DNA of 64,000 bases from Escherichia coli (lineage in GTDB: Bacteria > Pseudomonadota > Gammaproteobacteria > Enterobacterales > Enterobacteriaceae). Below the pieces are notes generated by a model. It was not told the origin of the DNA. It saw only the letters and a list, made by a program, of their open reading frames with translations, and did not search any database. Numbering within the stretch: the stretch's first letter is position 1; every line of letters begins with the position of its first letter. Shown piece by piece: positions 26,534-26,875 of the stretch. The stretch is from assembly GCF_024700885.2 (NCBI RefSeq), contig NZ_CP117016.1. One strand, given 5' to 3'. Position numbers and translations under genes: made by a program.

Positions 26534-26549
26534 CTGTTTATTTATACAG
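26534..26549. promoter_or_regulatory. LexA box (CTGT-N8-ACAG) in the tisAB/istR promoter region
   Basis: CTGTTTATTTATACAG followed by a TATAAT-like -10 at about 26558..26563. Confidence 0.8.
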
Positions 26550-26785
26550 TAAACTTCTATAATATCACTGTACGCAATGTGTTATGTGGGGGCCGCATCG
26601 TTACCCGGCGCACTAAGTCCTGGCTGAAACGGGTGGTGCCGTCAGCGCCTTAACCCCGCGTGAGCACACTGTGTTATGTCAACAAGCACAACGTTTCTCC
26701 TTGAGATACCGCGTGCACAACAGCTGGCAACAGGCAGCGGAAAGGTACGTCAGCTGGCAGTGCTCCTGAACCACAGGAGACGCGT

Positions 26786-26875
26786 ATGAGCCTGGTGGAT
26801 ATCGCCATTCTTATCCTCAAACTCATTGTTGCAGCACTGCAACTGCTTGATGCTGTTCTGAAATACCTGAAGTAA
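26786..26875 (+). CDS. tisB: SOS-induced type I toxin TisB (29 aa)
   Basis: Translation MSLVDIAILILKLIVAALQLLDAVLKYLK, stop TAA; the divergent istR sRNA should lie just upstream of the LexA box on the minus strand but I could not delimit it. Confidence 0.9.
   Translation: MSLVDIAILILKLIVAALQLLDAVLKYLK

What the first reader, a model, noticed from the sequence alone, without database searches (positions are those of the whole stretch)
26534..26875. Intact SOS-regulated tisB type I toxin locus with canonical LexA box
This is expected core-genome content, noted because it is missed by the ORF track (29 codons). A perfect CTGT-N8-ACAG LexA box overlaps the promoter and TisB is intact. The antisense sRNA istR should lie divergently upstream, but I could not place its ends from memory.
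Basis: partly seen in the sequence, partly recalled or inferred. Interest (0 to 1): 0.15.

Follow-up and report, generated by a model that had tools for sequence, protein, structure and literature searches.

The report
Known tisB/istR SOS toxin-antitoxin locus
This is the well-studied E. coli tisB/istR-1 locus, a DNA-damage-induced 29-residue membrane toxin held in check by a small antisense RNA; it is intact here and ordinary.

Summary
The observation and the interpretation both hold. The window is E. coli chromosome (ilvB-ivbL-istR-tisAB-ysdE-emrD). Every published part of the tis/istR locus is present and intact.

- LexA operator: TACTGTTTATTTATACAGTA at 26532-26551.
- tisAB -10 box: TATAAT at 26558-26563.
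- tisA ORF, not known to be translated: 26676-26789.
- Shine-Dalgarno AGGAGA: 26775-26780.
- tisB: 26786-26875, 29 aa. It passes the Pfam and NCBIfam TisB cut-offs.
- Terminator hairpin: 26895-26922.
IstR-1 is 26425-26351 and IstR-2 is about 26491-26351.

IstR-1 nucleotides 1-21 pair with tisAB mRNA 26663-26683, the published ribosome standby site.

The 651-nt locus is 99.1% identical to K-12 MG1655. IstR, TisA and the LexA box are identical to K-12. TisB differs by N2S, the published majority allele in E. coli.

One correction: the locus is not strictly core. About 20% of complete E. coli genomes, such as ATCC 25922, lack it and carry a decayed relic instead. This absence is also published.

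Nothing here is new, so interest is low.

The parts
26532..26551 (.). LexA operator (SOS box), TACTGTTTATTTATACAGTA. It is shared by the divergent tisAB and istR-2 promoters.
   Evidence: The core is. The 20-mer has 2 mismatches to consensus, with no match in 100 shuffles. It is identical to K-12. The heterology index for the tisB box is 1.81 according to PMC5668327.
26558..26563 (+). tisAB promoter -10 hexamer, TATAAT.
   Evidence: Read from the sequence. It matches the published element in Table 1 of PMC11264685.
26570..26925 (+). tisAB mRNA, about 356 nt. The start is inferred at 26570 +/- 2, and the end lies after the terminator.
   Evidence: This is inferred from the position of the -10 box. 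With this start, the published RNase III product end at +106 falls at 26675, inside the IstR-1 duplex.
26570..26610 (+). 5' segment (+1 to +41) that is removed by processing. In the predicted fold of the primary transcript it pairs with 26654-26674 and masks the standby region.
   Evidence: MFE fold. The published model is in PMC5668327 and PMC6690012. This window has U at +18 (26587) where K-12 has C. That changes a G-C pair to G-U, with a ddG of 1.9 kcal/mol and the same predicted structure.
26663..26683 (+). IstR-1 target and ribosome standby region in the tisAB mRNA.
   Evidence: Direct repeat D2 (22 nt, 95% identical) with 26405-26426. Because the two genes are on opposite strands, this gives 21 contiguous pairs with IstR-1 nt 1-21, one of them G.U.
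26676..26789 (+). tisA ORF (37 aa). It is conserved, but there is no published evidence that it is translated.
   Evidence: ORF. No Pfam or NCBIfam family matches it. It is identical to K-12. Status per PMC11264685.
26775..26780 (+). tisB Shine-Dalgarno sequence AGGAGA. It is sequestered in a predicted hairpin with CUCCUG at 26763-26768.
   Evidence: Read from the sequence. Published RBS. Mean probability of being unpaired is 0.13-0.14 in the +1, +42 and +106 folds.
26786..26875 (+). tisB CDS, 29 aa, Ser2 allele.
   Evidence: ORF. Passes PF13939, NF011340 and TIGR04459. RefSeq annotates tisB at the same place in E. coli strain 1190, which is 100% identical over the queried stretches, and in K-12.
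26895..26922 (+). tisAB intrinsic terminator hairpin: a 12-bp perfect stem with a 4-nt loop.
   Evidence: Inverted repeat I1 and the fold.
26351..26425 (-). IstR-1 antitoxin sRNA (75 nt). Its 5' end is GUUGACAUAAUACAGUGUGCU.
   Evidence: Rfam RF01400. The 5' end is placed 7 nt downstream of the published -10 box TATACT. It is identical to K-12.
26351..26491 (-). IstR-2, the longer SOS-induced transcript (about 141 nt). It shares its 3' end with IstR-1.
   Evidence: The Rfam model covers 26351-26480. A promoter-like site, TGGACA then 17 nt then GATACT, was found and equals the published IstR-2 elements. The 5' end is inferred.
26432..26460 (-). IstR-1 constitutive promoter: -10 TATACT at 26437-26432 and -35 TTGCGC at 26460-26455, with a 17-nt spacer.
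   Evidence: Read from the sequence. Published elements are in Table 1 of PMC11264685.
26498..26526 (-). IstR-2 promoter: -10 GATACT at 26503-26498 and -35 TGGACA at 26526-26521. The LexA box begins 5 nt upstream of the -35.

Best explanation
[quoted passage not shown] The steps below are inferred by identity with the experimentally studied K-12 locus.

- In undamaged cells, LexA binds the operator at 26532-26551 and represses tisAB. According to the literature it also represses the divergent istR-2 promoter.
- IstR-1 is made constitutively from its own promoter.
- After DNA damage, LexA is cleaved and the roughly 356-nt tisAB mRNA is transcribed.
- The primary (+1) transcript is not translatable. 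The tisB Shine-Dalgarno sequence sits in a hairpin, and the 5' end masks the upstream standby region.
- Removing the first 41 nt gives the active +42 mRNA. A 30S subunit with protein S1 loads on the single-stranded standby site about 100 nt upstream and then slides to the tisB start.
- IstR-1 pairs through its 5' 21 nt with that standby site (26663-26683). This blocks loading and triggers RNase III cleavage to the inert +106 form.
- When tisAB mRNA exceeds IstR-1, the 29-aa hydrophobic TisB inserts into the inner membrane and dissipates the proton motive force and ATP. This promotes growth arrest and persistence.

Shown here: the presence, integrity, position and sequence identity of every element, the 21-bp complementarity, and predicted folds consistent with the model. 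Inferred from the literature: LexA binding, mRNA processing, the standby mechanism, toxicity and the phenotype.
For: - Rfam istR scores 150.1 bits against a gathering score of 45, matching the full model 1-130.
- TisB passes the Pfam, NCBIfam and TIGRFAM curated cut-offs.
- The 651-nt locus is 99.1% identical to K-12 MG1655. IstR-1, IstR-2, TisA, the LexA box, the SD and all promoter hexamers are unchanged.
- Synteny is ilvB-ivbL-istR-tisB-ysdE-emrD, as in K-12.
- The LexA 20-mer is unique in the window, with no match in 100 shuffles.
- All published promoter and RBS elements are found at consistent spacing.
- The 21-22-nt repeat gives the IstR-1/tisAB complementarity.
- Predicted folds show the SD sequestered and the +1 5' end paired with the standby region.
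- The mechanism is described in PMC6690012, PMC5668327 and PMC11264685.
- The Ser2 TisB allele was shown to be toxic (PMC11264685).
Against: Nothing found argues against this. Some caveats apply:
- Transcript ends are inferred from promoter positions, not measured.
- The MFE fold of the +42 form raises the predicted accessibility of the IstR target only modestly, from 0.38 to 0.47. Thermodynamic prediction alone does not reproduce the published open standby site.
- This allele carries a minority +18 C-to-U change, found in 188 genomes, whose effect is untested.
Confidence: 0.97

Rival explanations
1. The locus is a decaying or inactivated relic. Many E. coli lineages have lost tis/istR or carry IS-interrupted copies, and this could be one of them.
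For: About 1070 of 5426 complete E. coli genomes lack the locus and carry a short degenerate remnant between ivbL and ysdE. Other strains have ISKox3 inserted in the LexA operator.
Against: In this window every element is intact and collinear with K-12. There are only 6 substitutions in 651 nt. None falls in IstR, the LexA box, a promoter hexamer, the SD or the standby site. The one coding change gives the majority, experimentally toxic Ser2 allele.
Confidence: 0.01
2. The CTGT-N8-ACAG motif is a chance match in an AT-rich intergenic region and not a LexA operator.
For: The 8-base core motif alone is expected 0.62 times per window, and 44 of 100 shuffles had at least one.
Against: The 20-mer matches the LexA consensus at 18 of 20 positions, with no such site in 100 shuffles. 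It is identical to the K-12 tisB operator, which is reported as LexA-regulated with heterology index 1.81 (PMC5668327). It is conserved in about 94% of tis/istR loci. It sits directly between the two divergent promoters.
Confidence: 0.01
3. The upstream 37-codon tisA ORF, rather than or in addition to tisB, is the functional coding sequence of the transcript.
For: The tisA ORF is intact here. It is conserved in more than 99% of tis/istR loci. Its stop codon overlaps the tisB start codon (ATGA at 26786-26789), an arrangement that could couple translation.
Against: TisA matches no protein family. The literature reports no evidence that it is translated and attributes toxicity to TisB (PMC11264685). 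No Shine-Dalgarno sequence is annotated for it in the published element table. Its conservation can be explained by overlap with the standby site and the structured leader.
Confidence: 0.02

Closest known systems
tisB/istR-1 (tisAB-istR) type I toxin-antitoxin locus of E. coli K-12 MG1655
   Same: Same genomic position, between ivbL and ysdE/emrD. 99.1% nucleotide identity over 651 nt. Identical IstR-1 and IstR-2, LexA box, promoter hexamers, standby site, SD and TisA.
   Different: - TisB N2S (26790 G against K-12 A). This is the majority E. coli allele: 3340 genomes against 1004.
- +18 U instead of C in the 5' leader (26587), found in 188 genomes.
- One change in the terminator loop (26908) and one in the terminator tail (26923).
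- One change in the istR-2 promoter spacer (26509).
dinQ/agrB type I toxin-antitoxin locus of E. coli
   Same: LexA-repressed toxin gene. Divergent, non-overlapping, constitutively expressed antisense sRNA. An inert primary transcript is activated by 5' processing (PMC5668327).
   Different: The toxin and sRNA families are unrelated. dinQ translation does not use ribosome standby, and AgrB acts by inducing a structural rearrangement (PMC5668327). That locus was not looked for in this window.
zorO/orzO type I toxin-antitoxin locus
   Same: A 29-aa hydrophobic toxin with a long 5' UTR. Processing exposes a standby site, which the sRNA blocks with RNase III cleavage (PMC5668327).
   Different: Not reported as SOS/LexA-regulated. 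Different sequences and a different chromosomal location.

Membership tests
TisB toxin (Pfam PF13939; NCBIfam NF011340 and TIGR04459 equivalogs) | Sequence scores above the curated family cut-offs over the full length | tested here: met
   PF13939 37.6 bits (cut-off 25). NF011340 69.9 bits (cut-off 53), covering 1-29 of 29. TIGR04459 61.5 bits (cut-off 38).
TisB toxin (Pfam PF13939; NCBIfam NF011340 and TIGR04459 equivalogs) | 29-aa hydrophobic peptide retaining Lys12, which is needed for full activity | tested here: met
   The sequence MSLVDIAILILKLIVAALQLLDAVLKYLK has K at position 12. The K12L variant is attenuated (PMC11575346).
TisB toxin (Pfam PF13939; NCBIfam NF011340 and TIGR04459 equivalogs) | Membrane depolarisation and toxicity on expression | not testable with these tools
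   Published for this same Ser2 allele: tisB-N2S is toxic, and more so than the K-12 allele at low induction (PMC11264685).
IstR sRNA (Rfam RF01400) | Covariance-model score above the gathering threshold, full length | tested here: met
   150.1 bits against 45, model positions 1-130 of 130, E = 3.7e-31, at 26351-26480 on the minus strand.
IstR sRNA (Rfam RF01400) | 5' end of IstR-1 is complementary to the tisAB leader about 100 nt upstream of the tisB start | tested here: met
   21 contiguous pairs, one of them G.U: IstR-1 nt 1-21 with 26663-26683. The 3' end of this target lies 103 nt upstream of the tisB AUG (26786). No complementarity beyond this core exceeds shuffled controls.
IstR sRNA (Rfam RF01400) | Divergent, non-overlapping position next to tisAB, with its own promoter and terminator | tested here: met
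   Published -35 and -10 hexamers for IstR-1 and IstR-2 were found. The terminator hairpin with a U-run appears in the Rfam alignment and the fold.
SOS regulon (LexA-repressed promoter) | 20-bp operator matching TACTG(TA)5CAGTA | tested here: met
   18 of 20 positions match at 26532-26551. It is unique in the window and absent from 100 shuffles. It is identical to the K-12 tisB box.
SOS regulon (LexA-repressed promoter) | Operator placed so that bound LexA occludes the promoter | tested here: met
   The box ends 6 nt upstream of the -10 box TATAAT, so it covers about -38 to -19 relative to the inferred start. It also begins 5 nt upstream of the istR-2 -35.
SOS regulon (LexA-repressed promoter) | LexA binding and induction by DNA damage | not testable with these tools
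   Established for the identical K-12 operator in the literature (PMC5668327, PMC11264685).
Ribosome-standby-controlled mRNA (tisB type) | RBS sequestered in stable structure; upstream single-stranded region exposed only after 5' processing | tested here: inconclusive
   The SD is predicted to be paired in all three forms (P unpaired about 0.14). In the +1 fold, 26572-26591 pairs with 26654-26674. Predicted accessibility of the IstR target rises only from 0.38 to 0.47 in the +42 form. The sequence of the standby site, the leader from +42 and the SD is identical to K-12, where the mechanism was shown (PMC6690012).

The most novel reading that the evidence does not exclude
This strain combines two alleles. 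One is the more toxic Ser2 TisB. The other is a minority leader variant, +18 U at 26587, carried by 188 of about 4350 genomes that have the locus. The variant weakens one G-C pair of the inhibitory 5' helix to G-U, with a predicted cost of 1.9 kcal/mol. Together they could make TisB expression leakier and shift the rate of persister formation relative to K-12.
Probability: 0.08. Interest if true: 0.15.

Novelty: already known. Interest (0 to 1): 0.05.

Why it matters
It matters only as an annotation point. A 29-codon toxin gene and its sRNA partner are easily missed by ORF-length filters, and both are present and intact here. tisB/istR-1 is the paradigm for SOS-induced persister formation and for ribosome standby control, but this copy adds nothing to that knowledge. 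The useful corrections are that the locus is accessory rather than core, being absent from about a fifth of E. coli, and that the Ser2 form seen here, not the K-12 Asn2 form, is the typical TisB. Both points are already published.

Tried and rejected
1. Extended homology between istR and the tisAB leader. RNAduplex gave a 70-nt interaction at -78 kcal/mol, against -52.7 +/- 4.2 for shuffles. That hinted that the two genes might be diverged duplicates. After removing the 21-22-nt core, the rest was no better than chance. The local alignment score was 10, reached by 154 of 1000 shuffles. The duplex energy was -40.3 against a shuffle mean of -40.7. Rejected.

2. A second candidate tisAB promoter (TTGTCC at 26520-26525, 17-nt spacer, TATACA at 26543-26548). 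It would put +106 at about 26660, outside the IstR duplex, and it is not the published -10. Rejected in favour of TATAAT.

3. The third short repeat copy at 26575-26587 (D1). It is only 13 nt, and it is explained as part of the 5' segment that pairs with the standby region. No separate role is proposed.

4. An Rfam scan at a permissive E-value over 26050-27150 found no other credible RNA family. All extra hits were far below their gathering scores.

5. The remnant sequence from strain HH97 was searched as a possible common alternative allele. It occurs in only 2 genomes. The common tis-less allele is the shorter type seen in ATCC 25922.

Full report
**Observation**

CTGT-N8-ACAG occurs once in the window, at 26534-26549. 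That short motif alone is not significant: 0.62 matches are expected, and 44 of 100 shuffles had one or more.

The complete 20-mer TACTGTTTATTTATACAGTA (26532-26551) matches the LexA consensus TACTG(TA)5CAGTA at 18 of 20 positions. It is the only site in the 64 kb within three mismatches, and none was found in 100 dinucleotide-preserving shuffles.

The 29-codon ORF lies at 26786-26875 and encodes MSLVDIAILILKLIVAALQLLDAVLKYLK.

**Identity**

The window is E. coli chromosome. The neighbours are ilvB (24329-26017, minus strand), the ivbL leader, ysdE and emrD (27149-28339, plus strand).

A 651-nt query (26300-26950) is 100% identical to E. coli strain 1190 and 99.1% identical to K-12 MG1655. RefSeq annotates tisB under the match in both.

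The peptide passes the curated cut-offs of all three TisB models:
- Pfam PF13939: 37.6 bits against 25.
- NCBIfam NF011340: 69.9 bits against 53.
- TIGR04459: 61.5 bits against 38.

It matches the full Rfam RF01400 model at 150.1 bits against a gathering score of 45, E = 3.7e-31.

**Anatomy**

Table 1 of PMC11264685 lists the published regulatory elements of the K-12 locus. All are present here with sensible spacing:
- tisAB -10 TATAAT at 26558-26563.
- IstR-1 -35 TTGCGC at 26460-26455 and -10 TATACT at 26437-26432, with a 17-nt spacer.
- IstR-2 -35 TGGACA at 26526-26521 and -10 GATACT at 26503-26498.
- tisB RBS AGGAGA at 26775-26780.

These positions put the IstR-1 5' end at 26425, giving a 75-nt RNA that begins GUUGAC. 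They put the IstR-2 5' end near 26491, giving about 141 nt. Both lengths are consistent with published sizes, which I recall from my own knowledge of Vogel et al. 2004 and did not check here.

The LexA box ends 6 nt upstream of the tisAB -10 and starts 5 nt upstream of the istR-2 -35. One operator therefore sits between the two divergent SOS-controlled promoters.

The tisAB transcription start is inferred at 26570 +/- 2. The transcript ends after a perfect 12-bp hairpin at 26895-26922.

The tisA ORF (26676-26789, 37 aa) overlaps the tisB start codon in the sequence ATGA. It matches no protein family.

**Antisense pairing**

The plus-strand sequence 26405-26426 is repeated at 26663-26684 (22 nt, 95% identical). 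Because istR is on the opposite strand, IstR-1 nt 1-21 can form 21 contiguous pairs, one of them G.U, with tisAB mRNA 26663-26683. That target lies about 100 nt upstream of the tisB AUG (26786).

With the start at 26570, the published RNase III product end at +106 falls at 26675, inside this duplex. The published +42 end falls at 26611. These coordinates agree with the published model (PMC6690012; PMC5668327).

**Predicted folds**

In the +1 transcript, the 5' end (26572-26591) pairs with 26654-26674 and covers part of the standby region.

In the +1, +42 and +106 forms, the SD stays in a CUCCUG/CAGGAG hairpin, with a mean unpaired probability of 0.13-0.14.

The predicted accessibility of the IstR target rises only from 0.38 to 0.47 on removal of nt 1-41. 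Thermodynamic prediction is therefore compatible with the experimentally derived structure switch but does not demonstrate it.

**Mechanism**

The mechanism is inferred from sequence identity with the studied locus.
- LexA represses tisAB, and according to the literature also istR-2.
- DNA damage induces the mRNA.
- 5' processing to +42 opens a standby site where a 30S subunit with protein S1 loads before moving to the sequestered RBS.
- Constitutive IstR-1 occupies that site and directs RNase III cleavage.
- When the mRNA escapes IstR-1, TisB depolarises the inner membrane and promotes persistence.

Sources are PMC6690012, PMC5668327, PMC2826370 and PMC11264685.

**Differences from K-12**

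There are six substitutions in 26300-26950: 26346, 26509, 26587, 26790, 26908 and 26923.
- None lies in IstR, the LexA box, a promoter hexamer, the standby site, the SD or tisA.
- 26790 gives TisB N2S. Searches with a 40-nt query in which every 28-base megablast seed word spans the variant found 3340 genomes with Ser2 and 1004 with Asn2. Ser2 is therefore the majority allele. This is published: 85% consensus, more toxic than the K-12 form at low induction, with no difference in ciprofloxacin survival (PMC11264685).
- 26587 is +18 in the leader, U here and C in K-12. It is a minority allele found in 188 genomes. It converts a predicted G-C pair of the inhibitory 5' helix to G-U. The predicted cost is 1.9 kcal/mol and the predicted structure is unchanged.

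**Correction to 'core genome'**

Only 4360 of 5426 complete E. coli genomes match the locus, and 4150 of those cover at least 80% of the query.

With a longer query that includes the flanks, 5420 genomes match but only 4348 cover at least 80%. The remaining 1070 or so, such as ATCC 25922, have ivbL and ysdE/emrD but no tisB annotation.

In place of the locus, ATCC 25922 carries a short degenerate sequence. Two strains, HH97 and HH45, carry a longer relic of about 175-190 bp. It retains recognisable pieces of tisA (41 nt, 90% identical) and of the tisB 3' end (57 nt, 77% identical). This suggests loss by decay rather than primary absence.

Published survey figures are similar: 82% full, 3% interrupted and 15% absent (PMC11264685).

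**Dead ends**

An apparently long IstR/tisAB duplex from RNAduplex did not survive removal of the 21-nt core. There is therefore no support for wider homology between the two genes. A permissive Rfam scan of the region added nothing.

**Verdict**

The locus is a textbook, already characterised system in a typical allelic form. It is already known, and interest is very low.

Noticed in passing
window 20750-23900: A low-GC island (33-37% GC, against about 55% in the flanks) lies between uhpA and ilvN, which are adjacent in strain HH97. It holds two paralogous minus-strand ORFs: 20806-22368 (520 aa as the longest ORF) and 22478-23773 (431 aa). They are 26% identical to each other (E = 8e-27) and have no Pfam family. 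RefSeq calls them hypothetical proteins in strain 1190. The island is variable: 1109 of 5426 E. coli genomes have some match and only 39 are at least 99% identical.
   Followed up: partly
window 26347-26985, compared with L002 3047-3235 and L004: About 1070 of 5426 complete E. coli genomes, such as ATCC 25922, lack tis/istR. In its place they carry a short degenerate sequence. Strains HH97 and HH45 carry a longer relic that still shows pieces of tisA (90% over 41 nt) and of the tisB 3' end (77% over 57 nt). This suggests the locus was lost by decay in those lineages.
   Followed up: partly
window 26538-26545; L003 around 1684 and 3001: In other E. coli strains (SCEC020007 and 5270), an ISKox3 (ISL3-family) element is inserted inside the AT-rich spacer of the tisB LexA operator. 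It has an 8-bp target duplication, TTATTTAT. The insertion splits the two LexA half-sites and separates tisAB from istR.
   Followed up: partly
window 27071-27073 (minus strand): The annotated start codon of the small-protein gene ysdE (26999-27073, minus strand) is ATA here, where K-12 has ATG (27071 is T here and C in K-12). An in-frame TTG lies one codon upstream at 27076-27074. RefSeq still annotates ysdE in the identical strain 1190.
   Followed up: no
window 26206: The ivbL leader peptide differs from K-12 by one substitution: MTTSMFNAK here against MTTSMLNAK in K-12. The change lies outside the Val/Leu-rich regulatory run.
   Followed up: no
window 26931-26981; L005 around 1240-1430: A degenerate REP-like palindromic sequence lies between the tisAB terminator and ysdE. 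It gives a weak Rfam naRNA4 hit of 20 bits, below threshold. Many other strains, such as 05-3629, have a different and longer GC-rich inverted-repeat element in the same position, which makes the region about 139 bp longer.
   Followed up: no
window 41158-41230 (-), 51360-51402 (+), 56879-56959 (+): Three other Rfam families score above their gathering thresholds elsewhere in the window. They are a ROSE_2 RNA thermometer (100.4 bits), the ES036/CssrF sRNA (50.9 bits) and AsdA, the antisense RNA of dnaA mRNA (101.9 bits).
   Followed up: no
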